From sequence record MK962753.1: DNA of 64,000 bases, one strand, 5' to 3'. The notes under the pieces are model-generated. The model was not told where the DNA came from, did not search any database, and saw only the letters and a list, made by a program, of their open reading frames with translations. This document shows positions 2,786 through 17,742 of the stretch, in pieces; the first letter of the stretch is position 1; each line of letters starts with the position of its first letter. The translations under genes and the position numbers were made by a program. This DNA comes from Shigella phage JK32.

Positions 2786-3580
2786 ATGCTTAAAGAAATG
2801 CTGCTCGAAGAAGCAAAACAGATCACCGTCGATGTTGCTCTCGATGATCTGTTTGAATCCGTCGAACTGTCGCCGGAAGTAAAAGAAAACTTTGGTACTA
2901 TCTACGCTCAAGCGGTAAAAGCTAATGCAGTTGCACTGGCAGAAAGCCACATTGAAAAAATTGCCGCTAAAGCCGATGAACTGGTAGAATCAAAGGTAGA
3001 AGAAGCTCGCACCGAAATCGAAGCTAAACTCTACGAAGATGCAGATAAATTCCTGAATCATCTGGGCGCTAAATGGCTGGCTGAAAATAAAGAAGCTGTT
3101 ACCCGTAATATTAAAGCGGATCTGTGCGAATCCCTGATTGGTTCCCTGAAAGATGTTTTCGTTACTCACAATGTTGTAGTACCGGAAGAATCTGTAGACG
3201 TTGTTGCGGAACTGGACGAAGCACTGAAAGAAGAAAAAGAGAAAACCGCTGAACTCTTTGACGCTAAACTGACTCTGGAAAGCGAAATTCGCGGCATGAA
3301 GCGTGAGCAAGCTATTACTGAAAGCACTCGTGATCTGTCCGATACCCAGAAAGAAAAAGTTACCGCGCTGATCGAAGGTCTGGAATATAGCGAAACCTTT
3401 GATAAGAAATTGACTGCAATTGTTGAGATGGTTGCCAAGAAAGAAGAAAAACCAACTCACATTGAAGAATCACTAAATACTGATGCCGACAAGCTGAATG
3501 TTATTGTTGAAGCTGTCGAAGAATCAGAGAAAAAAGCAACTGTAGATACTGGCGTTTCTCGCTACCTGAATTATCTCTAA
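2786..3580 (+). CDS. 22: Prohead core scaffold protein gp22
   Basis: 264 aa highly acidic, alpha-helical (E/K/A-rich) protein between 21 and 23. Confidence 0.85.
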   Translation: MLKEMLLEEAKQITVDVALDDLFESVELSPEVKENFGTIYAQAVKANAVALAESHIEKIAAKADELVESKVEEARTEIEAKLYEDADKFLNHLGAKWLAENKEAVTRNIKADLCESLIGSLKDVFVTHNVVVPEESVDVVAELDEALKEEKEKTAELFDAKLTLESEIRGMKREQAITESTRDLSDTQKEKVTALIEGLEYSETFDKKLTAIVEMVAKKEEKPTHIEESLNTDADKLNVIVEAVEESEKKATVDTGVSRYLNYL

Positions 3581-3637: not shown

Positions 3638-5224
3638 ATGAAAACTACCAAAGAACTGATGGAAAAATGGTCTCCGCTGCTGGAAAACGAAAAACTGCCG
3701 GAGATTGCAACCGCATCTAAACAGAAACTGGTTGCTAAAATTCTGGAATCTCAGGAAGCAGATTTTGCAGTAGATCCGATTTATAAAGATGAGAAAGTAG
3801 TAGAAGCGTTTGGTGGCTTTATCACCGAAGCAGAAGTTGCTGGCGACCACGGTTACGATGCTTCCAAAATTGCCGCAGGTCAGACTACTGGCGCAATCAC
3901 CAACGTAGGTCCGGCTGTTATCGGTATGGTTCGTCGTGCTATCCCTAACCTGATCGCATTTGACATTTGCGGCGTTCAGCCGATGAGCACCCCGACTAGC
4001 CAGATCTTTGCAATCCGTTCCGTATATGGTGGCGATCCGCTGAAAGAGGGTGCTAAAGAAGCATTCCATCCGATGTATTCCCCGGATGCGTTCCATAGCT
4101 CTCTAGCTGCTAAAGATGCAACCGCTGCTAACCCGGTAGGTACTGCATTCGCTAAACTGACTATGAATACTGCAATCAATGGAGGTGATATTGTTCATCA
4201 CACCTTTGCAGAAACTGGTATTGCATATCTGCAAAACGTAAGCAGTCAGGCTGTTACCCCGTCTAAACAGGGTCAGGAATCCGACGATGAAGCAGTAATG
4301 AAACTGATCGAAGAAGGCAAACTGGCTGAAATCGCACACGGTATGGCTACTTCCATCGCGGAACTGCAAGAAGGCTTTAACGGTTCCCAGAATAACCCGT
4401 GGAACGAAATGTCAATGCGTATTGACAAACAGGTTGTTGAAGCGAAATCTCGTCAACTGAAAGCCCGTTATTCTATCGAAGTTGCTCAGGATCTGCGTGC
4501 TGTACACGGTATGGACGCTGACGCCGAATTGAATGCTATCCTGGCTAACGAAGTTCTGCTGGAAATCAACCGTGAAATCGTTGACGTAATCAACTTTACC
4601 GCTCAGGTTGGTAAGACTGGCATGACTCAGACCGTTGGTTCTAAAGCTGGTGTATTCGATCTGCAAGATCCGATTGATACCCGTGGTGCTCGTTGGGCTG
4701 GTGAATCCTTCAAATCTCTGATCTACCAGATTGACAAAGAAGCTGCTGAAATCGCTCGTCAGACTGGTCGCGGTGCTGGTAACTTCATTATCGCTTCCCG
4801 TAACGTTGTAAACATTCTGGCTTCTGCTGATCAGGGTATTAGCGTAGCAATGCAGGGCGCTGCTCGTGGTCTGAATACCGACACCACTAAAGCTGTTTTC
4901 GCTGGTGTTCTGGCTGGTAAGTATAAAGTATTCATCGACCAGTATGCTCGTCAGGACTACTTCACCGTAGGTTACAAAGGCGACAACGAAATGGATGCTG
5001 GTATCTACTACGCACCGTATGTTGCTCTGACTCCGCTGCGTGCAACTGATCCGCAGTCTTTCCACCCGGTTCTGGGCTTCAAGACTCGTTACGGTATCGG
5101 TATTAACCCGTTTGCTGATAGCAAGTCTCAGTATCCGAGTGCTCGTATCACTTCCGGTATGTTGAGCAAAGAAAGCGTAGGTAAAAACGCTTACTTCCGC
5201 CGCGTATGGGTGAAAGGTTGCTAA
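3638..5224 (+). CDS. 23: Major capsid protein gp23
   Basis: 528 aa; long stretches match recalled T4 gp23 (e.g. GPAVIGMVRRAIPNLIAFDICGVQPM, SIAELQEGFNGS, NAYFRRVWVKG). Confidence 0.97.
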   Translation: MKTTKELMEKWSPLLENEKLPEIATASKQKLVAKILESQEADFAVDPIYKDEKVVEAFGGFITEAEVAGDHGYDASKIAAGQTTGAITNVGPAVIGMVRRAIPNLIAFDICGVQPMSTPTSQIFAIRSVYGGDPLKEGAKEAFHPMYSPDAFHSSLAAKDATAANPVGTAFAKLTMNTAINGGDIVHHTFAETGIAYLQNVSSQAVTPSKQGQESDDEAVMKLIEEGKLAEIAHGMATSIAELQEGFNGSQNNPWNEMSMRIDKQVVEAKSRQLKARYSIEVAQDLRAVHGMDADAELNAILANEVLLEINREIVDVINFTAQVGKTGMTQTVGSKAGVFDLQDPIDTRGARWAGESFKSLIYQIDKEAAEIARQTGRGAGNFIIASRNVVNILASADQGISVAMQGAARGLNTDTTKAVFAGVLAGKYKVFIDQYARQDYFTVGYKGDNEMDAGIYYAPYVALTPLRATDPQSFHPVLGFKTRYGIGINPFADSKSQYPSARITSGMLSKESVGKNAYFRRVWVKGC

Positions 5225-5262: not shown

Positions 5263-5305
5263 TATATGTAAACTTGATAGTGTAGTTACTAAAAGTTTTC
5301 TTTAA

Positions 5306-5336
5306 GGGAGATCCGAAAGGGTCTCCCTTTTCTTTT
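5306..5336 (+). terminator. Rho-independent terminator after gene 23
   Basis: 9-bp GC-rich stem (GGGAGATCC/GGGTCTCCC) with GAAA tetraloop followed by TTTTCTTTT. Confidence 0.75.
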
Positions 5337-5351
5337 GTCTAAAAAACACAT

Positions 5352-5359
5352 TATAAATA
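5352..5359 (+). promoter_or_regulatory. T4-type late promoter (TATAAATA) for the accessory module 5397-10265
   Basis: Exact TATAAATA about 38 nt upstream of ATG 5397; RBS AAGGGGAG precedes the ATG. Confidence 0.6.
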
Positions 5360-5396
5360 AGATTGCAAGCCTATATTCTAAGGGGAGCGAAAATAG

Positions 5397-5705
5397 ATGC
5401 ACACACTTATAAAGACCAAAACTCCCGCCGTGTCTGCACCAATTAGCTGCATTCATAGTACCCATATGACGGTACAAATGACAGTTGAAAGTGCTGTACA
5501 AGGGCAAAAAGTTGTCGCAGAGGCTGTTTTAGAAGGTTCTCTCGATGGCAAAGGTTGGTTCACTATTTCAGAATTGAAAGCTGATGGTAATGAATATGCA
5601 ACTGATGGTGGAGCGTTTGAAACATTATGGTCATTTATTCGGGCTAAGGTAAAATCATTATCCAATGGTTCTACCGTAAATGTGTATCTTGCGAAACGGG
5701 GGTAA
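5397..5705 (+). CDS. Hypothetical small late protein (first gene of module between 23 and 24)
   Basis: ORF with good RBS (AAGGGGAG) after a late promoter; no recognisable homologue. Confidence 0.5.
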   Translation: MHTLIKTKTPAVSAPISCIHSTHMTVQMTVESAVQGQKVVAEAVLEGSLDGKGWFTISELKADGNEYATDGGAFETLWSFIRAKVKSLSNGSTVNVYLAKRG

Positions 5706-5708
5706 TGC

Positions 5709-7427
5709 ATGAAGCTAAATCCAGATGCGGTTATTAATGCTGGTTCTGTTGGCGGTGGTACTGGTTCCGGCGGTGGTGGTATTCAGGTCGGAACTAATGT
5801 ACCATGCGGAATTAAAAATACTCATCGTTTCGAAAATGAAGCTGAACGAGACGCATATTTTACCACTAAATTTGCGGAATTGGATCGCCTAAAAACAATT
5901 ATTGTTTGCGGTGGTAAACTTCAATTGTGGACAGGTGCGACTGCCGCATCACCTTATGATAATACCAAATGGGTCGATATGACCTGGGTAATTCAAGGAG
6001 AACAGGGTACTACTGGTGAAAAAGGCGAGAATGGACGAGGTATTGCCAGAATTGAAGCGCAAATCTCTGATGATGATCGCGAATGGAAACTAGAAATTAC
6101 CTACTCAGATTCTACCACAGAAACATTAACTTTCCCTGTACCTGATGTGTTAGCTAATGTTGCGCAACGTCTTACTGCATTAGAGGTAAGATGGACAGCA
6201 ACTGGTCAGCCAGTTAATAACCTTGATGCGACTGTAGATCAGGGTCGTTATCCGGTTGGAGATAACACATACGGTAAGCCACCAATGATGGCAAATAAGG
6301 GGTCTGCTGATGTATATGTCATTGAGGGTAGCATTATTCAAGTGGTTCGTTCTATTGACGGTGGCGTGTACTCTCGTATCCGACACAACGGTCATTGGAG
6401 CGAGTGGGTCTCGCAAAGTGGCGGTGGAAATGGTAGCGGTGGAGGCTTGACGGGTGATCAAGAAGCTATGTTAACTAGCTTAGTTAATCGTCTACCGGAA
6501 ATTTCACCAAATACACGCGATCTTAACACTCTACAGAAGCAAGGTCGTTTCTGTTATGATGAACGTACTACAAACCGCCCTAATGGTACTCAGGTACACG
6601 GGTCGGTAGATGTTCATGCTTGCAAAGATCATGTATTACAAATCGCAACCAGTCTCGATGGTGTCATGTCACATCGCGCACTGGACAAAGCAAACGGTAC
6701 ATGGTCTGAATGGTTGCAGATAAGCGATCATACTGGTGGGGCTACGATTTACGCGTTTCCTAGAGTTTCTAGTGTATTCACCACTTCGCAAAACTTGATT
6801 GAAGTCACAAAACCGGGCGCTGGATTCTTTTATATTCCGTGGAAATATGTTATTCATGATAACTATGGATGCACTCCACAGATCCAACACCCAGACCGTC
6901 AACAAGATGCGGATCATTGGTGGGTATGCCCGAAATCCGGTAGCTATGACATGGAATTATTGCTTGATATGAGTTTTATCAAGACACAAGCAACTATTCC
7001 GGTTCTTGCTGCTGTAACGGCATGGCACAGGAAAGCAGACGGAAGCGAGACAGAAGCCGCACGTTATCAAATCCCGTTTGATGTTACCCAGAAAAACCAG
7101 AAAACAAGATCCGCTAAACTCCGCATTAATAATTTGCCATCCGGCGAGATGATCCGCTGGCAGGTAAAACTCAGTGGTTATAGCTGGAGCGAAACTGATA
7201 ACCCAGACGTAGCATTTGCACCCTTCCGCACTATGCTGATGGTCGATGAAGCAGAATACGACACAGCAAAACGAATTGGTGCTCTTGCGTTCAATACATG
7301 GGCTAACTTCCATGCGAAAAAAGGTTTTGCTGCCGCTGTAAGTGAGGACGAAAATCAGAAAGCACGTCTTAACGCCGTTAAATGGGGTGCTGTCATTGAA
7401 TCCGTCCAAGCTCAGTCACAACCATAA
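5709..7427 (+). CDS. Hypothetical structural protein with Gly-rich and collagen-like (G-X-Y) segments
   Basis: 572 aa; starts 4 nt after previous stop; N-terminal GSVGGGTGSGGGG, five consecutive G-X-Y triplets (GEQGTTGEKGENGRG), second Gly-run GGGNGSGGG. Confidence 0.6.
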   Translation: MKLNPDAVINAGSVGGGTGSGGGGIQVGTNVPCGIKNTHRFENEAERDAYFTTKFAELDRLKTIIVCGGKLQLWTGATAASPYDNTKWVDMTWVIQGEQGTTGEKGENGRGIARIEAQISDDDREWKLEITYSDSTTETLTFPVPDVLANVAQRLTALEVRWTATGQPVNNLDATVDQGRYPVGDNTYGKPPMMANKGSADVYVIEGSIIQVVRSIDGGVYSRIRHNGHWSEWVSQSGGGNGSGGGLTGDQEAMLTSLVNRLPEISPNTRDLNTLQKQGRFCYDERTTNRPNGTQVHGSVDVHACKDHVLQIATSLDGVMSHRALDKANGTWSEWLQISDHTGGATIYAFPRVSSVFTTSQNLIEVTKPGAGFFYIPWKYVIHDNYGCTPQIQHPDRQQDADHWWVCPKSGSYDMELLLDMSFIKTQATIPVLAAVTAWHRKADGSETEAARYQIPFDVTQKNQKTRSAKLRINNLPSGEMIRWQVKLSGYSWSETDNPDVAFAPFRTMLMVDEAEYDTAKRIGALAFNTWANFHAKKGFAAAVSEDENQKARLNAVKWGAVIESVQAQSQP

Positions 7428-7439
7428 TGGGGGTGTATA

Positions 7440-8363
7440 GTGGAACATACAGGAAAAAGGTTGCTAGATCTTAGAAATGGTTTTAATCAGGGTGAAATCA
7501 CAGAAATCACTGGTATGCCAGCTAGTGCTCTCATGGAGGCAGACGTAGGCCGCATATCTAATCAAATCAACACCGAACTAATTGATCCGGTGATTGATTT
7601 TATTATTGCTTGCGATGAAGTTATCGCAAATGCAGCCGAGGATGCTTTAAACAAAGCCGAGAGCGCCGAGAGTATGGCAGAAGTCGCAGACCGAACGGCA
7701 GGTCAATCTATGAGCAAGGCAACCGATGCTCTAGACAAAGCGACGACCGCAGAATCGGAAGCAGGGCGAGCGCATGATCGCTTAGACAAGTTGAACATTC
7801 CACAAATCCCGAACTTAGACGGGCACACATGGAATTGGCTACCACGTTCTTTCGATAGCGTGTCTATTCAGTTGGGAAGCGGTATCACATTAGTTGATCC
7901 AGTGAACGGCAAGCCTCACATTACATGGACACCAATTAGACAGAACTACGAGACAGGAAGATATTACATCGAGGGTCGTTTTGAAGCCAGATTTAAAGTA
8001 ATGTTAATGGACTGGATTCAACAATCATCCGGTGGTCATATTTTCTATCTAGGTGGTGGTCAAAGTCTGGCATCATTTAACGGACGCGTGTCACTGGTGA
8101 ATATCTCGAATGATATAATGAAGCCGACTAATATACAAGTCAACGCATACACTGCCAAAGATACTCAGGTTATTTTCGGTGCGTGTGCTGATGCGGCAAT
8201 TTCAACATCAAGGGAAGTTAAACTAGCTTTCATGGTTGATACTGGAACAGATAAATTTGACCGATATAATGATCCTGTATATGTTGATTTGGTAATGACA
8301 TTCCAACGCGACGGGGAAGGAAATTTCGGATTCGGAAATCTTTTCCCAAGCCTAAATCCTTGA
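7440..8363 (+). CDS. Hypothetical fibre-like protein sharing an N-terminal domain with the next gene (GTG start)
   Basis: 307 aa; GTG start with GGGGG RBS; N-terminal ~50 aa (ALME.D...IS..IN..LI.PVIDFI..CD) conserved with ORF 8421..10265. Confidence 0.55.
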   Translation: MEHTGKRLLDLRNGFNQGEITEITGMPASALMEADVGRISNQINTELIDPVIDFIIACDEVIANAAEDALNKAESAESMAEVADRTAGQSMSKATDALDKATTAESEAGRAHDRLDKLNIPQIPNLDGHTWNWLPRSFDSVSIQLGSGITLVDPVNGKPHITWTPIRQNYETGRYYIEGRFEARFKVMLMDWIQQSSGGHIFYLGGGQSLASFNGRVSLVNISNDIMKPTNIQVNAYTAKDTQVIFGACADAAISTSREVKLAFMVDTGTDKFDRYNDPVYVDLVMTFQRDGEGNFGFGNLFPSLNP

Positions 8364-8370
8364 TCCTATT

Positions 8371-8400
8371 GTCGGGGAGAAATCCCCGACAACGTTTTCT
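8371..8400 (+). terminator. Rho-independent terminator
   Basis: 8-bp stem GTCGGGGA/TCCCCGAC with GAAA loop then ..CGTTTTCT. Confidence 0.6.
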
Positions 8401-8420
8401 AATATCAACGAGGATATGAT

Positions 8421-10265
8421 ATGTTAAGAAACCGTGCAATCAAGTCAACCCCTAATTTCATTCAAGGGGATATGGGAAATATTACCTCAAGAGATAATCA
8501 TGCATTAATGGAGCATGATATTCCAACAATCTCTGACACAATTAACAGGGATCTAATTACACCAGTAATTGATTTTATCAACGAATGCGATAATATTCTA
8601 CTCGATGGAATCGGGACGGTCGCAGATACTGTTGATATTATCGAACGGAAAGCTGATAATGCAACCGAAATTTCTAATTACGCCAGTGAAAAAGCTATCG
8701 AGGCATTGGCAAAATCAAAAGAAAGTTTGACGAAAGCGGAAGAAGCAAACACGGTAGCAAATAGTGTTGCTGGTGATGCGCAAACAGCATTAACTAAAGC
8801 TAATGAGGCTAAAACGCTAGCAGAAAGTCTTAAAACAAAAGTTGATGGTTATGACACCAGAATCACAGAAATTGATTCTAAGGCAACTACAGCTCAATCT
8901 GACGCGTCTTTAGCAAAAGATAAAGCTGATGCACTGGAAACAACGGTCAATAGCGAGAAAACTAAACTGACAGCATTGACTACTAAGGTCGATACTCTAG
9001 AAGGTGATATTATCGATGCTGTGGATCTGGCTGAACAAGCAAAGAATAAAGCCGATTCAGTAGAAACACAAGCCATTAATAACACCACAGAGATTACCGC
9101 TTTAAAAGGCCGTGTATCAACTGTAGAGACACAATCAGCAGAAGCCAATAGACTGGCTACCCAAGCCGATAAAAATGCGTCTACGGCGCTCTCAGACGTT
9201 TCTACGTTATCTTCAAAGGTTGATGATGTTAAGGCTACAGCCGACGCAGCAAGCGCAAGCGTGGCGGGATTAACTCAGGATATCGGAGAAGTGCGGACAC
9301 TGGCAGAAACAGCCACGACAAACATCACAACTCTTTCCGGTAAAGTTGATACCATAAAGACAACCGCAGATACAAACAAGACCAATATTGAAGCATTAAC
9401 CACTCAGGTTAATGAACACACAACTAAGATCGGAGAGTTGGAAACTGGTGTATCTAACGTTAATGGTGAACTTACCACGGTTCAGGAAACCGCAGCTAAT
9501 GCACTTCAAAAGGCCACCAGCGCAGAAACAAAGGCAGGTAATGTAGAGACACTAATTAATAGTCTTACACCGCGTGTGGACGCGTTAGAAGGCGATTTAG
9601 GTACATTAGAGAGCACTGTTGCTGATTTATCTCCTAAAGTGACAGCAGCAACCGAAAAAGCGACTATGGCATTCAACAAAGCAACTGCCTTAGAGCAAAA
9701 AACGGAATCGATGGAAACAGAAATCGAAGATGTTCGCCTCGATGCTGGGACCGCGATGGCAGAAGCGACACAAGCTAATAGTGAGATCGCCACGTTAAAA
9801 ACTAAAGTCGGTGAACTGGAAAGCGATGTTGACACAGCCGATACAATCGCAAATGAAGCATTAGCAGTTGCACAAAGGGCGGATACTAATGCAAATACAG
9901 CCAATACAAATCTTGCAACGATAACACCAATCGTGGAAAGATTGAATGGTGCATTTGTCGGTATGATTCGAATCAGATACAAGGAAACTCGAACTATAAC
10001 GAAAGCTGGCGGCAACACTCGTCGTAAGTTGATAATCCCACAAGTTCGAAAAGGTGATATGGCATTTGCGGCATTTTTAAACGTACCAGATAAACGAGAT
10101 AGTATTCTGTTTAACTGTATGATTCCTGTCGACGGCGAAGTTCACATGGCAATAAAAAATCTGCATACCGCTGCATTAGATTTTAACGATTGGGTTCAAA
10201 TATTGGTATTCCAGACAAGTACGGGTAATCCTATTGTTGACCCAGAAACAAGCCTAACAAACTAA
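8421..10265 (+). CDS. Coiled-coil fibrous protein (fibritin-like architecture), paralogous N-terminal domain
   Basis: 614 aa; conserved N-terminal domain shared with 7440..8363, then roughly 400 aa of A/T/E/K-rich heptad-like repeats, globular C-terminus. Confidence 0.6.
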   Translation: MLRNRAIKSTPNFIQGDMGNITSRDNHALMEHDIPTISDTINRDLITPVIDFINECDNILLDGIGTVADTVDIIERKADNATEISNYASEKAIEALAKSKESLTKAEEANTVANSVAGDAQTALTKANEAKTLAESLKTKVDGYDTRITEIDSKATTAQSDASLAKDKADALETTVNSEKTKLTALTTKVDTLEGDIIDAVDLAEQAKNKADSVETQAINNTTEITALKGRVSTVETQSAEANRLATQADKNASTALSDVSTLSSKVDDVKATADAASASVAGLTQDIGEVRTLAETATTNITTLSGKVDTIKTTADTNKTNIEALTTQVNEHTTKIGELETGVSNVNGELTTVQETAANALQKATSAETKAGNVETLINSLTPRVDALEGDLGTLESTVADLSPKVTAATEKATMAFNKATALEQKTESMETEIEDVRLDAGTAMAEATQANSEIATLKTKVGELESDVDTADTIANEALAVAQRADTNANTANTNLATITPIVERLNGAFVGMIRIRYKETRTITKAGGNTRRKLIIPQVRKGDMAFAAFLNVPDKRDSILFNCMIPVDGEVHMAIKNLHTAALDFNDWVQILVFQTSTGNPIVDPETSLTN

Positions 10266-10294
10266 TTAATTTCATCAACTATAGGGGAATTAAC

Positions 10295-10447
10295 ATGAGC
10301 AAGAAAAAAGATAGCTATGTTCAAATTACCAAGAAACAGTATGATGAATTAATGTTAGCGGTGGCCTATGCCATAATGCGATCTGATTTGGCGATCCAGC
10401 AAATCGAAAAGACAAATAAAAGTCTTGAGAATGTAGCAGCAAATTAA
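10295..10447 (+). CDS. Small hypothetical protein (50 aa)
   Basis: ATG with upstream GGGGA; below the ORF-track length cutoff; ends just before terminator hairpin. Confidence 0.3.
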   Translation: MSKKKDSYVQITKKQYDELMLAVAYAIMRSDLAIQQIEKTNKSLENVAAN

Positions 10448-10453
10448 TTTTTT

Positions 10454-10486
10454 GGGGAATCCTTAACTGGATTCCCCTTTCTTTTA
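10454..10486 (+). terminator. Rho-independent terminator before the gene 24 late promoter
   Basis: 9-bp stem GGGGAATCC/GGATTCCCC followed by TTTCTTTT. Confidence 0.7.
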
Positions 10487-10492
10487 TAAATA
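10485..10492 (+). promoter_or_regulatory. T4-type late promoter (TATAAATA) for gene 24
   Basis: Exact TATAAATA about 38 nt upstream of gene 24 ATG. Confidence 0.65.
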
Positions 10493-10530: not shown

Positions 10531-11772
10531 ATGGCACAGATTTTCAATGAACTGTTAAAGGAATCGACTTCCTCAGTAGCAAACCAGACAGCAAGACCAC
10601 AATTATTGGCACTTACCCGCGCGGTTAACAACCTGATTTTCTCCGATCTGGTGGCAATTCAGCCAACAAATCAGCCTATTTGTGCATTATTCGGACTTCG
10701 TTATGTTAACCGTGATGGTCAAATGACTTATCGTACCGCAGGAACGTATGGTGGTGCGGCTGGTAATCGTGATGTTTTTGAAGATTTTCAGAAAGATAAA
10801 GAATATCAGGTCGGTGATCATTTCAAATTTGATAATGTTGTATATGAAGTGATTACAGAAGGTGCAGTAGGACAGGATATTTCTACCGAAGAAGAAGCGA
10901 TCTTTAAGGGAGTAGTGTCAAATAAAATTCGTTTCTTTAGTGATTATGCACCGACTGAATATTTCGAAGATGCAAACACTGAAATTTCTACTACCGATTT
11001 TGATTTTGAAAAATGGCAAGTTAATGTCGGATCTCGTAAACTGAAAACAGAATTTACTACCGAATTGATGCAAGACCTGGAAGCAAACCAGATGAACTCT
11101 GAAAATACCGTTTTGGATCTTCTTGCTACCGTTGCATCCGAAGAAATCAATAAAGATATTATCCAGAAACTGATTACGGTATCAACTCGTTATAAAGTTA
11201 AGAGCATTACACCTGATGGCGTTCTTTCACTGGTTAACGTTCAGGACGCACCAGCACAAGCGCGTGAACTTTATCGCTATGCATGTGAAATGAGTAATCA
11301 AATGCTTCGCACTTCGTCTTTCGGTGGTACTTATGTTCTTGCATCTTCTCGTGTTGTTGGCCTCCTGCAAGCTAGTGGCTGGATGGAAGAAACTGACAAT
11401 GCACTAAGTGAAGGTCGTTTACGTTGTGGTTTAGAAGTTTATGCGGACACTGTAACCCCGTTTGATTATATGATCGTTGGTTGTAAGCATATGGTTGGTG
11501 ATATGGAGAGCGTAGGTTCTCTGTTCTACTCCCCATATACAGAATCAGACGGAGCGGGTGCATATAAGAGCATCATCGATCCTAATAGCTTCAACCATAA
11601 AGTAGCGATTATGAATAGATATGCTCTTTCTGTCAACCCATACACAACCAAAGCTGATCAAGAAAACAACCAAGTAATCAAGGGTGACGAGTGGGGCAAA
11701 CTTGCCGGACGTTCAGAAATGTCCTACATGCTGGGTATAGAACTGCCACCGCTTGAGATTGACAACGCTTAA
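10531..11772 (+). CDS. 24: Capsid vertex protein gp24
   Basis: 413 aa; aligns along its length with recalled T4 gp24 (e.g. ...LVAIQPTNQP..., KSRKLKT.FT.ELMQDLEAN, FYSPYTE). Confidence 0.92.
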   Translation: MAQIFNELLKESTSSVANQTARPQLLALTRAVNNLIFSDLVAIQPTNQPICALFGLRYVNRDGQMTYRTAGTYGGAAGNRDVFEDFQKDKEYQVGDHFKFDNVVYEVITEGAVGQDISTEEEAIFKGVVSNKIRFFSDYAPTEYFEDANTEISTTDFDFEKWQVNVGSRKLKTEFTTELMQDLEANQMNSENTVLDLLATVASEEINKDIIQKLITVSTRYKVKSITPDGVLSLVNVQDAPAQARELYRYACEMSNQMLRTSSFGGTYVLASSRVVGLLQASGWMEETDNALSEGRLRCGLEVYADTVTPFDYMIVGCKHMVGDMESVGSLFYSPYTESDGAGAYKSIIDPNSFNHKVAIMNRYALSVNPYTTKADQENNQVIKGDEWGKLAGRSEMSYMLGIELPPLEIDNA

Positions 11773-12360
11773 CTAAATATCTAACCAAGACAAATCAGAT
11801 CCGCCCAAGATTTTTTCAACGGCGGATCTATTTTCTTGATGATACAAGTTAAAGCATGGTATCCCATGTCTACGAGCAACATAAACAGCAATTCGAGTCC
11901 CGCCAGAAACAATCCCATTAACTTCTTTCGCCCAAAATAACACACAATCTACAGGATCATCAAGTGTCTCACCTAAGACTTGAGCAACATTTCTAGAAAA
12001 CAGATTTTGCATGTATAACGGTATAGAACGAGGATTATCATAAACGTGTTCTAATTCATCCATCGCCAGATTTTTTTGTTCTAAGGTTTGCCATGCAATC
12101 ACATCATGACCGTTATGCTTGTGGTCATAAAACTTCCAATTTGGAATGAAAATTTTTCTATAATCTGGATCGTAATACTTCATGAAAGCATTGTCCATAC
12201 CGTAAGCCCCTCCAGAATGCGCTACAACGCGATTTTCTGACAATACCCTCCCAATGGTACTAGCCATTATCAAAATGTCGCTAGGCGCTTTTCTAGAGCC
12301 GATTAAAGCACATCTACGAAGCGGTTTTACTCCAACTAGATCTTGTAACTGGTCAAACAT
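11773..12360 (-). CDS. SLOG-superfamily (DprA/Smf/YpsA-like Rossmann) protein
   Basis: 195 aa; motif LIGSRKAPSD...AHSGGAYGMDNA resembles the DprA/SLOG GSR...SGGA.G.D signature; occupies the position of rnlB in T4. Confidence 0.55.
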   Translation of the reverse strand: MFDQLQDLVGVKPLRRCALIGSRKAPSDILIMASTIGRVLSENRVVAHSGGAYGMDNAFMKYYDPDYRKIFIPNWKFYDHKHNGHDVIAWQTLEQKNLAMDELEHVYDNPRSIPLYMQNLFSRNVAQVLGETLDDPVDCVLFWAKEVNGIVSGGTRIAVYVARRHGIPCFNLYHQENRSAVEKILGGSDLSWLDI

Positions 12361-13925: not shown

Positions 13926-15152
13926 TTAAGCAGGAGGCGTTTCACGAATGCGTAGAACTCGCTCTAACGTCTCTCGGTCCAGTTTATGGAAATCTTTGGA
14001 CTGATACATGAAACCATTGCGAGATTCCATGCAAGTGCAATCACTATATTTTTCTTCCGCTGCTGCGATCGTCTCCAGATCTTTGGCGTACTTGCTGGTT
14101 GAATAAACTTCTCGGTGACGCCACTCTAAACCAGCCTCATTGAATTTAACAATCTCGTCAAATACCCACCATCCAATATAGATGAATGAAGTTTTGCGCC
14201 ACGGGATCGGGTGCACGTAACGGAACATTTTATGAAGAGATTCAACAACTTCCATTGAACACTTTCTGCTTGTATGTGCTGCAACTTCTACTGTTGCGCT
14301 TTCGATCTGTTGGTATAATTTAGCAACACACCAGAATTTGGCTGTGTCATCGTAAGTAGCACGCTCTTTGAACAGATGACCGTCTGGCATGATAGAAAAT
14401 CCTTCCAGTGCTTCGCCGACCTCACTACCGATCAGAGTCGGTGACGGCTGTCCTTCACGTTGCAAATACCAGTTATGTTTGATAGTCAATTTAGGCATAC
14501 CGCTAGAATCGCCTACAATGTCCTCTGATACAACATAATTAAGTAAGATTTCCTTACCTAGTGCTACGGTCTTTGATTCCACCACATCCTGATCTACGCT
14601 CATTGTAGCCAGCATGATTTTAGTCGATGCACTATCGGCTGAATCTTCCGATTCGCCCCATACTTTGACAGTATACACACCGTTGTTATCTGCTGTAAAT
14701 TCTTGGATCGTGATATCCTGTGTTGTGTCTATAACTTCTTCGCCCTTACTCCAACTATAATGTAGTTCATAGTTGTCTGTTGGAGTCTTCCCGCCAGAGA
14801 ATTTGACGGTTGCGTGTAATTCTACGTCTGTGTGAGTAGGAACATAGAATTGCGGCGGTTCGGTGATCTTAACGATTAATTCAGCTTCTTCCATACGGAA
14901 AACGTCAGATTCTACAGATTCCCCGCTGTCGGTATCTTGTACGGTGACTTTATAGTTACCCGCATTTTCACTTGTTGCACCTGCTACAGTTAGCGTAGCG
15001 GTGTTATTTTCATGCGGTTTGTTGTCTTTTGTCCATGTATAGGACAAATTGCTGGGTAATGGTTCGTCACCTGCTACAGTCGCTGTTAATGTGAAACCAT
15101 CTCCAGCAAGAAAACATCTTTTGTTCGATTTAATTGATACTGTGAAAGCCAT
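13926..15152 (-). CDS. hoc: Highly immunogenic outer capsid protein Hoc (3 Ig-like domains + capsid-binding domain)
   Basis: C-terminal domain RYVHPIPWRKTSF.Y.GWWV.DEI...ESRNG matches T4 Hoc C-terminus (PYVHPLPHRSSAYIWCGWWVMDEI...ESRNGY); start placed at second ATG which has a GGAG RBS. Confidence 0.8.
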   Translation of the reverse strand: MAFTVSIKSNKRCFLAGDGFTLTATVAGDEPLPSNLSYTWTKDNKPHENNTATLTVAGATSENAGNYKVTVQDTDSGESVESDVFRMEEAELIVKITEPPQFYVPTHTDVELHATVKFSGGKTPTDNYELHYSWSKGEEVIDTTQDITIQEFTADNNGVYTVKVWGESEDSADSASTKIMLATMSVDQDVVESKTVALGKEILLNYVVSEDIVGDSSGMPKLTIKHNWYLQREGQPSPTLIGSEVGEALEGFSIMPDGHLFKERATYDDTAKFWCVAKLYQQIESATVEVAAHTSRKCSMEVVESLHKMFRYVHPIPWRKTSFIYIGWWVFDEIVKFNEAGLEWRHREVYSTSKYAKDLETIAAAEEKYSDCTCMESRNGFMYQSKDFHKLDRETLERVLRIRETPPA

Positions 15153-15167
15153 ATAAAGCCACTCCAT

Positions 15168-15201: not shown

Positions 15202-17742
15202 TTAAAATAGTTGAGTACCATCAACCAGATAACCATTACGAGATTCCAATACATGAGTATTAGAATAGTGATGCAACGAGGCTGCAATAGTCTCGATCTC
15301 GTCCGGGTATTTGGTGTGTTCAAAGTCTTCTAACCAGTTAAGCCCTTCGCGGTTGCAACGGTCAATTTCATCAAGTACCCAATAGCCTTGATACTGGAAC
15401 GAAGTACGACGCCACGGAATCGGGTGTACATAGCGTTTTAATTTCGCGGTAGTAAACACTACACGAACTTTTTCACTATGTTTAACATGTCCTTCGTCGT
15501 CAGTAACTTCTGCATAATAGGTTGCTTGATGTGTCTCCTTGCTAATTTGTTCTTTAGGAATAGTATACACCTTACTATTCGCGCCAGGAATAACAGTATC
15601 TTTACCGCCCTGAATTTTATGCCACTTCCATTGAACTTCTTTTTCATCATCAACGTGTTCGGCATGAGCTTCTAAGGTAATATCCTGTTTCTGTCCTTCT
15701 TTAGCAACCACATCCACCGGATGTTTCAGAATATTGATATTTGAATGATGAGTCATTGTCACTAATGCAGGATTAGATTCAATGGTATTCTCACCAGCCG
15801 TAATTACCGCTGTGTAGCTGCCTACGTCAGACGGTTTTGCGTGATCAATAATCAACACATCTGAATTTGCACCAGGAATAATTTCACCGTCTTTTTTCCA
15901 TTGATATGATGGTTTAATACCAATAGATGTTTGTGCGGCAGCGTGTAACATAATTTTTTCATTATATTTCACATGCGCATCTTGTGGGTGAGTTGTTATT
16001 GCTAGGTCATTTGGAACAACCGTTACATCGTCGGAGATCAACACCCTAACCGCTTCTGACATTTTAGAAACTCGATGTTCACCGAATCCAGCCGATACAC
16101 GGCATGTATAAACGCCAGTAGATGTTAATTGTGCATGATCTTCGCCATATACATTTCGTTGTTCAATTCCTGCTGGGAAAAGATCCTCACCATCTTTAAA
16201 CCAACGGTAACGAACTGGCAAAGCATCATTAGACGTTGCCTTGATGGTAAGCGCCCATTGTCCACCGGAGCGAACTTTAACTGCTTTCGGTTGTACAGTG
16301 ATCTCTAACGTTGCCTTTGAGTTATCAACTGTCACCTGAACTGCATTAGACTCAGCCGAAATTCTGTGATTCTGGATACCCATAGAAACTTTACATTTAT
16401 ATTGACCTTCGTCTGCTTTAGTGATTGAGGAAAAATGCAAAGTTTTAGATGTTTTTCCAGGAATCAACTCATCATTTTTATACCACTGATAATCAAGTTT
16501 ATAATGTTCGTAGTCTGTCTCTGCTTCACAAATAAGAGTTTGTGAGGAACTAACTCGAACATTGGTTAACTGCTGTGGTTGTTGAGTGATTCGAATTGTT
16601 GGCGCAGCACCGACAAGAAGATCCGCTTCTTGTGATTCTGAAACCATATTATCACCGTAAGTCACTTTTGCTTTATATTTCGCCTGATTTAATTCCGCAG
16701 TTGCTGGTGCAATGTGGAGATCTTTATTAGTTGCGCCAACAATTGGTTTAAATTCATCTTCACCATTTTTCTTGATGTACCATTGAACTTTTACTGGTTC
16801 ATAGTTTGTTGCATAATCAACACTGAACAAACCTAAAGCACCAGCACCCACATTTATTGTGAGTGGTTGTTTAGTGAATCGAAAGAACGATCGACCTTCG
16901 ACTGTAACGTGACAATCTTTTGAATAGATCGTTGTTTCTGCTTGACGAACTTCAAGACGCCATACACCCTCGTCTTTTTTCGTGACGTGGGTTATAGTTA
17001 ATGCAGTGCCGTCTTGATCCAACACCATCCTATCGTTGTGAATCCACACATATGATAAAGGACGAGTTTTGTCATCGGTTGTCACCTGTGCTTGTAGTTC
17101 AAGTCTTCCATCTTCTGGAACTGTAACCGCTGATGGGTAATGTTCCTGAATATGAACTTTAGGAGCATCTTTATTTTGTTCCACTACTACAGGACTGATC
17201 CAATAGTGAGAACGTGCATCATCGGTAACAAATACCTTACAAGTATAGTTGCCAAAATCCTCATAACCAACTCGATCTACATGCACGTTTTTTTGACGGA
17301 TTTTATCTGGATTTAACTGAATGTGGTTTTTATACCAAATAGTATCAAATTGCTTGTTATCTTCGATGAACGGAGTAACAAAAATATCCAATTCTTCGCC
17401 TAAACGCTTATAAATGTAGGTCGGAGATTGATCCTGTGGTGCAAGGAAGGTGCGACGTTCAACAAGAATAGGCTTAATATCAACCGATTCAAGCGGATTA
17501 TCTTTCAGCTTAACTTTCGCTGTATACGTGCCGAATTGATCTTGAGTCATTTCAGCAATATACAGAGATTGATCTGGTTCTGCAACCTGATCTGATGGTA
17601 CGCTTTGACCGTTTAGCTTCCATTCTACGATATAGTCTTTAAAATCTGCGGTACTTACTACGAGCTTAAGAACAAGTTCATGTCCTACAGACGCGTAGAC
17701 CGGACCCATAGTTTGATGTAAAATATTGATTTTATCAGACAT
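15202..17742 (-). CDS. Hoc-like giant paralogue (multiple Ig-like domains + Hoc capsid-binding domain)
   Basis: 846 aa; repeated ~90-aa Ig-like units with conserved W/Y/C pattern; C-terminus KRYVHPIPWRRTSFQYQGYWVLDEI...ESRNGY homologous to Hoc C-domain; RBS AAGAGGA. Confidence 0.8.
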   Translation of the reverse strand: MSDKINILHQTMGPVYASVGHELVLKLVVSTADFKDYIVEWKLNGQSVPSDQVAEPDQSLYIAEMTQDQFGTYTAKVKLKDNPLESVDIKPILVERRTFLAPQDQSPTYIYKRLGEELDIFVTPFIEDNKQFDTIWYKNHIQLNPDKIRQKNVHVDRVGYEDFGNYTCKVFVTDDARSHYWISPVVVEQNKDAPKVHIQEHYPSAVTVPEDGRLELQAQVTTDDKTRPLSYVWIHNDRMVLDQDGTALTITHVTKKDEGVWRLEVRQAETTIYSKDCHVTVEGRSFFRFTKQPLTINVGAGALGLFSVDYATNYEPVKVQWYIKKNGEDEFKPIVGATNKDLHIAPATAELNQAKYKAKVTYGDNMVSESQEADLLVGAAPTIRITQQPQQLTNVRVSSSQTLICEAETDYEHYKLDYQWYKNDELIPGKTSKTLHFSSITKADEGQYKCKVSMGIQNHRISAESNAVQVTVDNSKATLEITVQPKAVKVRSGGQWALTIKATSNDALPVRYRWFKDGEDLFPAGIEQRNVYGEDHAQLTSTGVYTCRVSAGFGEHRVSKMSEAVRVLISDDVTVVPNDLAITTHPQDAHVKYNEKIMLHAAAQTSIGIKPSYQWKKDGEIIPGANSDVLIIDHAKPSDVGSYTAVITAGENTIESNPALVTMTHHSNINILKHPVDVVAKEGQKQDITLEAHAEHVDDEKEVQWKWHKIQGGKDTVIPGANSKVYTIPKEQISKETHQATYYAEVTDDEGHVKHSEKVRVVFTTAKLKRYVHPIPWRRTSFQYQGYWVLDEIDRCNREGLNWLEDFEHTKYPDEIETIAASLHHYSNTHVLESRNGYLVDGTQLF

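What the first reader, a model, noticed from the sequence alone, without database searches (positions are those of the whole stretch)
5340..10492. Late-transcribed accessory module of fibre-like proteins inserted between major capsid gene 23 and vertex gene 24
In T4 only segC lies between genes 23 and 24. Here about 5 kb is inserted, bracketed by strong terminators (5306..5336 and 10454..10486) and headed by its own TATAAATA late promoter (5352). It encodes a 102-aa protein, a 572-aa protein with Gly-runs and collagen-like G-X-Y triplets, and two proteins (307 and 614 aa) that share a conserved N-terminal ~50-aa domain but diverge completely afterwards, the larger being a long coiled coil. A shared N-terminal anchor with variable distal parts is the organisation of whiskers, fibritins and capsid or tail decoration fibres, so this looks like an extra set of virion appendages, possibly auxiliary adhesins.
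Basis: partly seen in the sequence, partly recalled or inferred. Interest (0 to 1): 0.7.

Follow-up and report, generated by a model that had tools for sequence, protein, structure and literature searches.

The report
Accessory fibre-gene cassette beside capsid gene
Between the major capsid gene and the vertex gene, this RB49-like (T4-family) phage keeps an undescribed, late-promoter-driven set of genes for fibre-shaped, receptor-binding-type proteins, which most of its relatives have deleted and which may act as extra adhesins.

Summary
The window is Shigella phage JK32, a Krischvirus (RB49-like).

**Observation.** It is confirmed: five same-strand ORFs (102, 572, 307, 614 and 50 aa) lie between genes 23 and 24. 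They follow a T4-type TATAAATA box and are bracketed by hairpins of −18 to −19 kcal/mol.

**The proteins.**
- **ORF2** models as a tail-fibre/RBP-like protein with five G-X-Y triplets (invariant Gly), two R-pyocin-type knobs and a TNF/C1q-like head.
- **ORF3 and ORF4** share a ~60-aa N-terminal anchor (37% identity, E = 9e-14).
- **ORF3** adds a short rod and a pyocin-fibre-foot-like tip.
- **ORF4** adds a ~66-nm heptad coiled coil and a different tip.
- The anchor is very rare: 7 true hits among 1.84 billion representatives, all in this cassette.

**Selection.** dN/dS is about 0.1, as for gp23 and gp24.

**Correction.** The module was not inserted. RB49, JSE, Whisky and phiS carry a shared, eroding deletion scar, so the module is ancestral and was lost. 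Only the ORF4 slot is variable.

**ORF1.** It recurs directly after gene 23 in Aeromonas T4-like phages, next to a fibre with an Sf6-type knob. In a Pseudomonas phage it is fused to a GDSL esterase.

**Open.** Virion incorporation and the attachment site are untested. I rate it a new variant of a known kind, of moderate to good interest.

The parts
5304..5329 (+). Intrinsic-terminator-like hairpin after gene 23 (11-bp stem followed by a T-run)
   Evidence: Found and folds at -19.4 kcal/mol, z = -3.4. It is conserved in RB49 and UPWr_E1.
5352..5359 (+). T4-type late-promoter box TATAAATA, 37 nt upstream of the ORF1 ATG
   Evidence: Found. Its spacing matches the boxes upstream of genes 22, 23 and 24. 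It is conserved in RB49, UPWr_E1 and Whisky, but is CATAAATA in the module-less phages JSE and phiS.
5397..5705 (+). ORF1, 102 aa, a small protein of unknown fold (phrog_16217); proposed adaptor/docking subunit
   Evidence: PHROG match E = 3e-20. dN/dS is 0.11. Homologs sit directly after gene 23 in Aeromonas phages 31 and 44RR2.8t, and the domain is fused to a GDSL esterase in Pseudomonas phage Orisa03. It is unrelated to the Hoc capsid-binding domain.
5709..7427 (+). ORF2, 572 aa, a trimeric-fibre/RBP-like protein
   Evidence: AF2 model with mean pLDDT 62 and confident domains. Foldseek matches phi812 baseplate fibres, the R1 pyocin fibre, the P68 tail fibre and TNF/C1q folds. BFVD matches are tail-fibre annotations. 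There are 22 homolog clusters. dN/dS is 0.10.
5997..6041 (+). ORF2 aa 97-111: five collagen-like G-X-Y triplets
   Evidence: Gly 97, 100, 103 and 109 are invariant and Gly 106 is at least 90% conserved in 20 homologs. Pfam Collagen is not hit.
6201..6413 (+). ORF2 knob domain 1 (aa 165-235)
   Evidence: Internal repeat with knob 2: 32% identity, E = 3e-12. pLDDT is 70-80. Fold match to the R1 pyocin fibre 6cl5, E = 7e-8.
6516..6722 (+). ORF2 knob domain 2 (aa 270-338)
6756..7298 (+). ORF2 distal TNF/C1q-like jelly-roll head (aa 350-530)
   Evidence: pLDDT is 80-91. Foldseek gives TM-scores of 0.6-0.73, normalised to the target, against TNF-family and C1q domains, and also matches the cyanophage A-1(L) short-tail-fibre binding domain.
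7440..8363 (+). ORF3, 307 aa: anchor, about 13-nm helical rod, then a beta-sandwich tip
7440..7625 (+). Shared N-terminal anchor, copy 1 (ORF3 aa 1-62)
   Evidence: HMM score 104.8.
8369..8392 (+). Hairpin between ORF3 and ORF4 (10-bp stem, weak T-tail); possible attenuator of ORF4 transcription
   Evidence: Found and folds at -18.0 kcal/mol, z = -4.6. It is conserved, with a compensatory change, in metagenomic locus L016.
8421..10265 (+). ORF4, 614 aa: anchor, about 66-nm coiled coil, then a ~110-aa C-terminal domain of unknown fold
   Evidence: Its only relatives occupy the same slot in L016 (58% identity in the anchor, 33% over 341 aa) and L015 (46% in the anchor). None is found in INPHARED or IMG/VR beyond the anchor.
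8421..8606 (+). Shared N-terminal anchor, copy 2 (ORF4 aa 1-62)
   Evidence: (HMM score 93.2).
8601..9935 (+). ORF4 continuous heptad coiled coil (aa 61-505)
   Evidence: The period is 3.50, with power 12.5 against a shuffle maximum of 0.67. The Pfam Alanine_zipper and Tropomyosin hits are above their cut-offs.
10295..10447 (+). ORF5, 50 aa (phrog_16600), retained in all Krischviruses examined, including those without the module; role unknown
   Evidence: It is 60% identical to RB49p162.
10454..10477 (+). Terminator-like hairpin closing the unit
   Evidence: Found and folds at -17.9 kcal/mol, z = -5.7.
10485..10492 (+). Late-promoter box of gene 24

Best explanation
The interval is an accessory, late-expressed fibre cassette, ancestral to the RB49-like phages.

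**Parts.** It encodes a small adaptor-like protein (ORF1) and a trimeric receptor-binding-type fibre (ORF2: short collagen-like stretch, two pyocin-type knobs, TNF/C1q-like distal head). It also encodes one to three coiled-coil fibres that dock through a common ~60-aa N-terminal anchor. These fibres differ in rod length and tip:
- ORF3 has a ~13-nm rod and a pyocin-foot-like tip.
- ORF4 has a ~66-nm rod and a different tip.

**Proposed mechanism (inferred).** The unit is transcribed from its own late promoter, with the hairpin after ORF3 lowering the dose of ORF4. The proteins assemble as trimers and are added to the particle as auxiliary adhesins. They would give weak, reversible binding to surface glycans or other envelope structures before the long tail fibres engage. 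The cassette is not needed on laboratory hosts, which fits its loss in most relatives.

**Attachment site.** It is not known. From gene position and the behaviour of ORF1, I favour the head over the baseplate or neck, but only weakly.

**Shown versus inferred.** Gene structure, fold class, the shared anchor, purifying selection and the history of loss are shown. Late expression, trimer state, virion incorporation, adhesin role and site are inferred.
For: **Identity and layout.** JK32, a Krischvirus, with the ORFs and signals.

**Fibre/RBP fold class**
- ORF2 matches the phi812 baseplate fibres (E = 1e-9), the R1 pyocin fibre (7e-8), the P68 tail fibre and the TNF/C1q family.
- BFVD matches to ORF2 are annotated as tail fibre, BppU, minor tail or C1q proteins.
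- ORF2 has an internal knob repeat and invariant Gly residues in the G-X-Y run.

**Shared anchor with variable distal parts**
- The anchor profile finds only 7 true N-terminal hits in 1.84 billion representatives, on proteins of 94-982 aa. Every one with enough sequenced context to judge lies in this cassette.
- Cassette variants hold 1 to 3 coiled-coil genes.

**Coiled coil.**, with Lpp-type alanine-zipper hits above their cut-offs, a family that is trimeric.

**Functional genes.** dN/dS is 0.08-0.14, like gp23 and gp24.

**Dispensable and ancestral.** There is a shared deletion junction and progressive erosion in RB49, JSE, Whisky and phiS. Only 5 of about 120 close relatives in the phage collection keep ORF2.

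**ORF1 pairs with fibres or enzymes**
- The Aeromonas 44RR2.8t ORF162w/163w pair sits at the same locus. ORF163w carries Phage_fiber_rpt and the Sf6-type knob PF16532 (E = 4e-27), and has the same N-terminal peptide as ORF2.
- In Orisa03 the ORF1-like domain is fused to a GDSL esterase.

**Context from the literature**
- Brandy49, the only module-bearing phage in PMC9569957, has an unexplained broad host range that does not depend on O antigen. The authors note that no multiple RBPs were known in RB49-like phages.
- T4-family capsids are known to display alternative ligands, including a GDSL lipase (PMC10385173).
Against: - No proteomic, imaging or expression data exist for any of these proteins in the searchable literature.
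- No known virion-attachment domain was recognised in ORF1, the ORF2 N-terminus or the anchor.
- The Brandy49 correlation rests on one phage, is confounded by a divergent gp38, and Brandy's ORF2 is frameshifted in the deposited sequence.
- The TATAAATA count in the window is not above chance.
- Published negative-stain images of JK32 were described as ordinary T4-like morphology (PMC6832132).
Confidence: 0.62

Rival explanations
1. The proteins are the same fibres, but they attach to the tail (baseplate periphery or neck/collar) as side fibres, as in P2, Mu, pyocin or phi812-type systems, rather than to the head.
For: All the closest structural matches are tail or baseplate fibres and RBPs. 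A faint XkdV_N (PBSX tail-fibre N-terminus) hit is recorded on ORF2 homologs. The Aeromonas counterpart carries a domain named after a tail-needle knob.
Against: The genes lie in the head-gene block, far from the baseplate, wac and tail-fibre clusters. There is no similarity to the gp9, gp10, gp11, gp12, wac, gp13 or gp14 interfaces. Fibre domains such as knobs and TNF-like heads are generic modules, so they do not report the attachment site.
Confidence: 0.22
2. The proteins are not virion components. They would act in the infected cell or after lysis, for example as envelope-spanning or secreted coiled-coil proteins, exclusion factors or decoys.
For: ORF3 and ORF4 match the Lpp/OprI alanine-zipper models, and one database source names an ORF3 homolog 'major outer membrane lipoprotein'. 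There is no direct evidence of incorporation into virions.
Against: The N-termini of ORF1-4 show no signal peptide or lipobox by direct reading of the sequences. The alanine-zipper hits cover only the rod. The distal domains have RBP-type folds. The placement and late-promoter box match those of the structural genes.
Confidence: 0.1
3. The cassette is decaying or selfish cargo with no current function in JK32.
For: Most relatives have lost it, and the scars are eroding. Brandy's ORF2 is frameshifted and the slot-4 gene in L016 is split.
Against: The JK32 ORFs are intact and have Shine-Dalgarno sequences. dN/dS is about 0.1 across ORF1-3, equal to gp23 and gp24. The cassette is found intact in dozens of metagenomic contigs. 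It contains no endonuclease or transposase.
Confidence: 0.05

Closest known systems
R-type pyocin / P2-like tail fibres (PDB 6cl5, 6cl6, 6cxb, 6cu2)
   Different: There is no sequence homology. The knobs and the foot lie on two different proteins. No downstream chaperone gene is present. The genes are in the head-gene block of a T4-like phage, and the distal head of ORF2 is TNF/C1q-like instead.
T4 fibritin (wac), the segmented trimeric coiled-coil whisker
   Same: ORF4 is a long coiled-coil fibre of about 66 nm, compared with about 53 nm for fibritin (the fibritin length is from general knowledge). The family varies in rod length, as fibritins do.
   Different: The N- and C-termini are unrelated to T4 or RB49 wac. 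There is no foldon. Krischviruses have their own wac at the usual locus. The ORF4 heptad register is essentially continuous rather than segmented.
Hoc and Hoc-based capsid display in T4-family phages (PMC10385173)
   Same: Both are accessory, non-essential, surface-exposed decoration encoded near gene 24. There is a precedent for modular display of other ligands, including a GDSL lipase, which parallels the ORF1-GDSL fusion in Orisa03.
   Different: There are no Ig domains and no ESRNG capsid-binding domain. ORF1 against the Hoc C-terminal domain gives an hhalign probability of 0.2%. JK32 already has two Hoc paralogs.
Head fibres of phi29 (gp8.5), phiCbK and 7-7-1
   Same: The fibre genes lie next to the major capsid gene. 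The proteins are trimeric or filamentous appendages that are dispensable and used for initial attachment (general knowledge of phi29; PMC12796354).
   Different: No sequence or fold match to gp8.5 appeared among the top hits. Head location is not shown here.
Branched multi-RBP systems with shared N-terminal docking modules (CBA120 TSP1-4, G7C gp63.1/gp66, phi92; from general knowledge)
   Same: Several fibres or spikes have different distal specificities and dock through common or nested N-terminal adaptor domains.
   Different: The anchor here is a new ~60-aa helical module with no relatives in Pfam or the PDB. The distal parts are rods with small tips rather than enzymatic beta-helix spikes.
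Aeromonas phage 44RR2.8t / 31 ORF162w-ORF163w
   Same: It occupies the same locus, directly after gene 23 and before gene 24. It has an ORF1 homolog (34% identity), and the following fibre shares the N-terminal peptide (MILNPKAVLN against MKLNPDAVIN) and has a TNF-like knob.
   Different: It has a single short fibre of 288 aa, with no anchor-bearing coiled-coil genes. It is also uncharacterised.

Membership tests
T4-type late transcription unit | A TATAAATA -10 element a short distance upstream of the first gene, without a -35 element | tested here: met
   The box is at 5352, 37 nt before the ORF1 ATG. The spacing matches that for genes 22, 23 and 24, and the box is conserved in relatives. Timing of expression was not measured.
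Fibritin (wac) | An N-terminal neck-binding domain homologous to wac | tested here: not met
   BLASTP of ORF3 and ORF4 against RB49 and T4 wac gives no N-terminal match. Only weak rod-level hits appear, the best at E = 2e-4.
Fibritin (wac) | A C-terminal foldon or wac-type C-terminal domain | tested here: not met
   There is no match to the wac C-termini. The ORF4 C-terminus has no relative in the PDB.
Fibritin (wac) | A long trimeric coiled-coil rod | tested here: inconclusive
   Strong heptad periodicity runs over 445 residues and the alanine-zipper (trimeric Lpp-type) models are hit. The oligomeric state was not determined.
R-type pyocin / P2-type tail fibre | Tandem knob domains in the distal half | tested here: met
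   This holds at the fold level only: 6cl5 at E = 7e-8 and two repeats 32% identical.
R-type pyocin / P2-type tail fibre | A C-terminal lectin-like foot domain | tested here: inconclusive
R-type pyocin / P2-type tail fibre | Sequence homology, a baseplate-binding N-terminus and a cognate chaperone gene downstream | tested here: not met
   There are no Pfam, NCBIfam or PDB sequence hits. The only trace is a faint XkdV_N record on homologs. No chaperone-like ORF follows.
TNF/C1q-like trimeric head domains | A compact jelly-roll of about 140-180 residues at the distal end of a trimeric stalk | tested here: met
   ORF2 aa 350-530 has pLDDT 80-91. TM-scores normalised to the target are 0.6-0.73 against APRIL, BAFF, FasL and the Caprin-2 C1q domain. 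Trimerisation was not tested.
Collagen-like phage proteins | An extended run of G-X-Y triplets recognised by Pfam Collagen | tested here: not met
   Only five triplets are present and there is no PF01391 hit. The Gly positions are nevertheless invariant across homologs, so a short triple-helical segment remains possible.
Hoc | Ig-like domains plus a C-terminal ESRNG capsid-binding domain | tested here: not met
   No Ig hits were found in ORF1-4. The ORF1 family against the Hoc C-terminal domain gives an hhalign probability of 0.2%.
Lpp/OprI alanine-zipper lipoproteins | A signal peptide with a lipobox, plus a short alanine-zipper trimer | tested here: not met
   The models hit only the rods. 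The N-termini read have no signal peptide or lipobox Cys.
Virion structural protein (any) | Detected in purified particles | not testable with these tools
   No proteomics for JK32, UPWr_E1, SSG23, Brandy, G2248 or 44RR2.8t were found in the library.

The most novel reading that the evidence does not exclude
ORF1 is a previously unrecognised capsid-docking adaptor of T4-family and other myoviruses. It would let trimeric fibres (ORF2, or ORF163w in Aeromonas phages) or enzymes (the GDSL esterase in Orisa03) be mounted on the head. ORF3 and ORF4 would dock as a second tier through their private anchor. This would give RB49-like phages a modular, head-borne multi-adhesin system that helps them approach or cross O-antigen or capsule layers. 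It could also underlie the unexplained O-antigen-independent breadth of module-bearing phages such as Brandy49.
Probability: 0.2. Interest if true: 0.8.

Novelty: new variant of a known kind. Interest (0 to 1): 0.58.

Why it matters
T4-family virions are among the best-studied particles in biology. RB49-like phages are widely used in therapy cocktails and are thought to carry a single adhesin system (gp38 on the long tail fibres plus gp12).

A conserved but usually deleted cassette of three or four receptor-binding-type fibres would add a second host-recognition layer in this group. It would also give a concrete candidate for host-range differences that gp38 does not explain.

The cassette supplies two new small docking modules, ORF1 and the 60-aa anchor, that could be used for phage display or engineering. 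It is also a clear example of laboratory-type reference phages being reduced versions of their wild relatives.

Tried and rejected
**Sequence-family searches**
- Pfam, NCBIfam, PHROGs and PDB searches of ORF1-5 gave only coiled-coil or unknown-function hits.
- The PADLOC library was not run, because nothing pointed to a defence system.

**ORF4 homolog searches**
- The word-indexed homolog search found nothing, probably because coiled-coil words saturated the candidate list.
- IMG/VR also found nothing.
- Its relatives surfaced only through the anchor profile.
- Four profile hits were LVIVD-repeat proteins and were rejected as motif noise.

**Hypotheses tested and rejected**
- A fibritin paralog.
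- ORF1 being Hoc-like.
- A foreign island: G+C is 0.42-0.47 across the module, close to gene 23, so composition gives no sign of one.
- A structured RNA: there are no Rfam hits.

**Wider searches for ORF1**
- ORF1 relatives in 185,579 prokaryotic genomes: none found.
- In IMG/VR, only the same phage groups appeared.

**Literature**
- Searches for proteomics, head fibres in T4-like phages or a description of this locus found nothing specific.

**Limits**
- The JK32 GenBank record is not in the local collection.

Full report
**1. What the window is.**
The 572-aa and 307-aa proteins are 100% identical to JK32_00160 and JK32_00161 of Shigella phage JK32 (176,009 bp). DNA comparison places the window among RB49-like phages, genus Krischvirus, at 81-87% identity over the parts of the region that align. 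JK32 was isolated in Ireland on E. coli XL1-Blue, was described as having T4-like morphology, and has the largest genome of its group (PMC6832132). Neither that paper nor the others that mention JK32 discuss this region.

**2.
- Gene 23 (3638-5224) and gene 24 (10531-11772) are identified by Pfam Gp23.
- Between them, all on the + strand and each with a Shine-Dalgarno sequence, lie five ORFs:
  - ORF1, 5397-5705, 102 aa
  - ORF2, 5709-7427, 572 aa
  - ORF3, 7440-8363, 307 aa, GTG start
  - ORF4, 8421-10265, 614 aa
- Hairpins followed by T-runs lie at 5304-5329 and 10454-10477. They fold at -19.4 and -17.9 kcal/mol.
- A third hairpin at 8369-8392, between ORF3 and ORF4, folds at -18.0 kcal/mol.
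- TATAAATA occurs at 5352. The window total of eight boxes is not above chance (expected 5.7). Their placement is informative, though: seven of the eight lie 20-42 nt upstream of a same-strand ORF, and the spacing before genes 22, 23, ORF1 and 24 is 31-38 nt.
- In T4 the gene directly upstream of gene 24 is segD, not segC.

**3. What the proteins look like.**

*ORF2.*
- It has no hit in Pfam (gathering level), NCBIfam or the PDB by sequence.
- An AlphaFold2 model built from 20 homologs is confident for aa 112-147, 165-235, 270-338 and 350-530. It is disordered for the Gly-rich N-terminal 110 residues.
- Foldseek against the PDB returns two fibre chains of the phi812 baseplate (E = 1e-9 and 7e-9), the R1 pyocin fibre (7e-8) and the P68 tail fibre. 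It also returns the binding domain of the cyanophage A-1(L) short tail fibre, a Bdellovibrio fibre and a lactococcal RBP.
- For the C-terminal domain it returns many TNF-family and C1q domains, with TM-scores of 0.6-0.73 normalised to the target.
- Against predicted viral structures, the named matches are almost all tail-fibre, BppU, minor-tail or C1q proteins.
- The two knob regions are 32% identical to each other (E = 3e-12).
- The G-X-Y run is only five triplets. Its glycines are invariant or nearly invariant in 20 homologs down to 39% identity.

*ORF3.*
- The model (pLDDT 72.5) has a long helix at aa 27-117 and a beta-sandwich at aa 135-295.
- These scores are modest, but they all point to receptor-binding fibre tips.

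*ORF4.*
- Residues 61-505 form one uninterrupted heptad coiled coil. Spectral power at period 3.50 is 12.5, against 0.67 +/- 0.21 for the maximum in shuffles.
- At 0.148 nm per residue this is about 66 nm.
- The Lpp-type alanine-zipper models are hit above their cut-offs. This fits a trimer but does not prove one.
- The last ~110 residues have no relatives in Pfam or the PDB.

**4. The shared anchor.**
- ORF3 and ORF4 align at 37% identity over 116 residues (E = 9e-14). The strongest block is F-x-Q-G-[ED]...I-T...L-M-E-x-D...I-S...I-N...L-I-x-P-V-I-D-F.
- A profile of this block finds only these two copies in the window.
- Against 1.84 billion cluster representatives it gives 11 hits. Four are LVIVD-repeat proteins that match a short motif.
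- The other seven carry the block at their N-terminus, on proteins of 94, 230, 281, 305, 307, 454 and 982 aa.
- Every one with enough sequenced context to judge lies in the same cassette between genes 23 and 24 of a T4-like contig.
The anchor appears to be private to this cassette, and it has no relative in the PDB by sequence.

**5. Cassette variants.**
- Five phages in the annotated collection carry ORF1-ORF2-ORF3-ORF5 without ORF4: UPWr_E1, SSG23, SFHK24, Brandy and G2248.
- Metagenomic contig L016 has a true ORF4 homolog in the same slot. It is 58% identical in the anchor and 33% identical over 341 residues running into the C-terminal domain. Its rod is shorter, and the gene is split by a frameshift or an assembly error.
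- Contig L015 has a 230-aa anchor-bearing protein in that slot.
- A more distant T4-like contig, L005, has 98-aa and 560-aa homologs followed by three coiled-coil genes of 454, 982 and 382 aa. Two of these carry the anchor.
- The hairpin after ORF3 is conserved in L016 with a compensatory change.
- The exact ORF4 protein is not in the 15-billion-protein collection, although ORF1, ORF2 and ORF3 of JK32 are. It may be unannotated in the public record, which I could not check.

**6. The module is ancestral and was lost, not inserted.**
- RB49 keeps the gene-23 terminator, the TATAAATA box and the ORF1 ribosome-binding site, but the ATG reads ATA.
- Downstream, RB49 holds fragments matching ORF2 aa 397-447 in three different frames and ORF3 aa 260-307 with two in-frame stops. 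An intact ORF5 follows.
- JSE, Whisky and phiS share exactly the same ORF2/ORF3 junction but have lost a further 97 nt. They also differ by small indels.
- In JSE and phiS the promoter box has become CATAAATA. In JSE and Whisky the ORF3 tail has been re-framed into a 52-aa ORF that is annotated as a hypothetical protein (phrog_20809).
- At least 43 phage records carry only this tail fragment.
- This pattern indicates one deletion in an ancestor of the RB49-type majority, followed by erosion.
- Where the genes are retained they are under purifying selection. dN/dS between JK32 and UPWr_E1 is 0.11 for ORF1, 0.10 for ORF2 and 0.095 for ORF3. The flanking genes give 0.15 for gp23 and 0.10 for gp24. 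Synonymous sites are close to saturation for ORF2 and ORF3, so these ratios are approximate.
- Base composition does not mark the region as foreign.

**7. ORF1.**
- This 102-aa protein (phrog_16217) has homologs in the T4-like Aeromonas phages 31 and 44RR2.8t and their relatives (34% identity).
- There the gene again sits directly after gene 23. A single 288-aa ORF follows it before gene 24.
- That ORF carries Pfam Phage_fiber_rpt (E = 2e-9) and the Sf6-type tail-needle knob, a TNF-like trimeric knob (E = 4e-27).
- It begins MILNPKAVLN, against MKLNPDAVIN in ORF2 and MKLNPEAIIQ in the L005 homolog. For a single pre-specified comparison of two N-termini, a match of this kind is very unlikely by chance. 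This is my own estimate, not a tool result.
- In Pseudomonas phage Orisa03 the ORF1-like segment forms the first ~95 residues of a 594-aa protein. The rest of that protein is a GDSL/SGNH esterase.
- ORF1 therefore behaves as a small module that travels with, or is fused to, surface-acting fibres or enzymes. This is more like an adaptor or docking domain than a chaperone.
- It is not related to the Hoc capsid-binding domain (hhalign probability 0.2%) and has no relative in the PDB by sequence.

**8. How it most likely works.**

*Shown.* There is a compact same-strand unit behind a well-placed late-promoter box. It contains three proteins with the architecture of trimeric receptor-binding fibres. 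Two of these share a private anchor. The genes are functional where kept and are dispensable for the laboratory-type lineage.

*Inferred.* The proteins are made late, trimerise and are mounted on the particle as auxiliary adhesins. The ORF3 hairpin reduces the dose of ORF4.

*The attachment site is open.* Three observations favour the head:
- The genes lie in the head-gene block next to the vertex gene.
- phi29, phiCbK and 7-7-1 are precedents for head fibres.
- T4-family capsids are known to display alternative ligands, including a GDSL lipase, through Hoc (PMC10385173).

Two observations favour the tail:
- Every close structural match is a tail or baseplate fibre.
- A faint XkdV_N record is attached to ORF2 homologs.

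Fibre domains are generic modules, so I weight the structural argument less. I would not put the head above roughly twice the tail.

**9. Link to published biology.**
- In PMC9569957, Brandy49 infects all smooth and rough strains tested. It does not use O antigen or OmpA, and it crosses O-antigen layers by a mechanism the authors call elusive.
- Brandy is the only phage in that study with this cassette. RB49, Cognac and Whisky carry only the scar.
- This is a lead, not evidence. It rests on one phage, gp38 differs too, and Brandy's ORF2 is split by a 1-nt deletion in the deposited sequence.

**10. Comparison with known systems and novelty.**
- By fold, the proteins work like pyocin/P2-type and Gram-positive phage fibres. 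By organisation, they work like multi-RBP systems with shared docking modules.
- They are not members of the fibritin, Hoc, Lpp or collagen families, nor, by sequence, of the pyocin-fibre family (see the membership table).
- Auxiliary fibres are a known kind of feature. Four things are new here:
  - their presence in the head-gene block of a T4-family genus thought to have a single adhesin system;
  - the private anchor family;
  - the ORF1 module shared with Aeromonas and Pseudomonas phages;
  - the demonstration that the reference phage RB49 is a deletion derivative.
- I class it as a new variant of a known kind.

**11. Verdict.**
The direction of the evolutionary event is reversed, the fibritin analogy fails at the termini, and virion incorporation remains untested. 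My confidence in the overall explanation is about 0.6, and I score interest at about 0.58.

Noticed in passing
window 13926-15167 (-) and 15202-17742 (-): There are two adjacent Hoc paralogs of 413 aa and 846 aa. Both end in the conserved ESRNG capsid-binding domain, and the same pair occurs in related contigs. JK32 may therefore display two different Ig-fibre decorations.
   Followed up: partly
L003 2127-2640 (RB49); L023, L024 and L025 (JSE, Whisky, phiS): Module-less Krischviruses share one deletion junction (ORF2 ~aa 447 joined to ORF3 ~aa 260), with further nested deletions and indels. In RB49 the ORF1 ATG has become ATA. In JSE and phiS the late-promoter box is CATAAATA.
   Followed up: yes
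L023 695-853 (JSE EpJSE_00166) and equivalents; phrog_20809: The 45-52-aa 'hypothetical proteins' annotated in many RB49-like genomes are re-framed relics of the ORF3 C-terminal tail (…DLVMTFQRD..GNFGFG.LFP…). The same tail motif ends the coiled-coil proteins of L005.
   Followed up: partly
L002 ~3330-3350 (phage Brandy, MZ504876): The ORF2 homolog is split into two CDS by a 1-nt deletion in an A-run (TTTAAATGG becomes TTTAATGG). This may be a real mutation or a sequencing error.
   Followed up: partly
window 8421-10265: The exact 614-aa ORF4 product is absent from the 15-billion-protein collection, although JK32 ORF1-3 are present. It may be unannotated or annotated differently in GenBank MK962753, which could not be checked.
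   Followed up: partly
L014 6926-11971 (Pseudomonas phage Orisa03, genes 36-39): After the lysis genes there is a block made up of an ORF1-like domain fused to a GDSL esterase, a SurE-like gene, a collagen-like tail-fibre-like protein with a signal-peptide-like N-terminus, and a pectate-lyase-like protein. It may be another accessory host-surface module.
   Followed up: no
L005 1503-9061 (ENA ERZ27260015 k141_207255): A distant T4-like contig has an expanded cassette (98, 560, 454, 982 and 382 aa). The 382-aa protein lacks the anchor but shares its C-terminal domain with the 982-aa protein.
   Followed up: partly
   Followed up: yes
window 10295-10447: ORF5 (50 aa, phrog_16600) is kept intact in all Krischviruses examined, even where the fibre genes are deleted. 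It therefore probably has a role independent of the fibres.
   Followed up: no
window 11773-12360 (-): A DprA-like recombination-mediator homolog lies on the opposite strand directly after gene 24, as in RB49.
   Followed up: no
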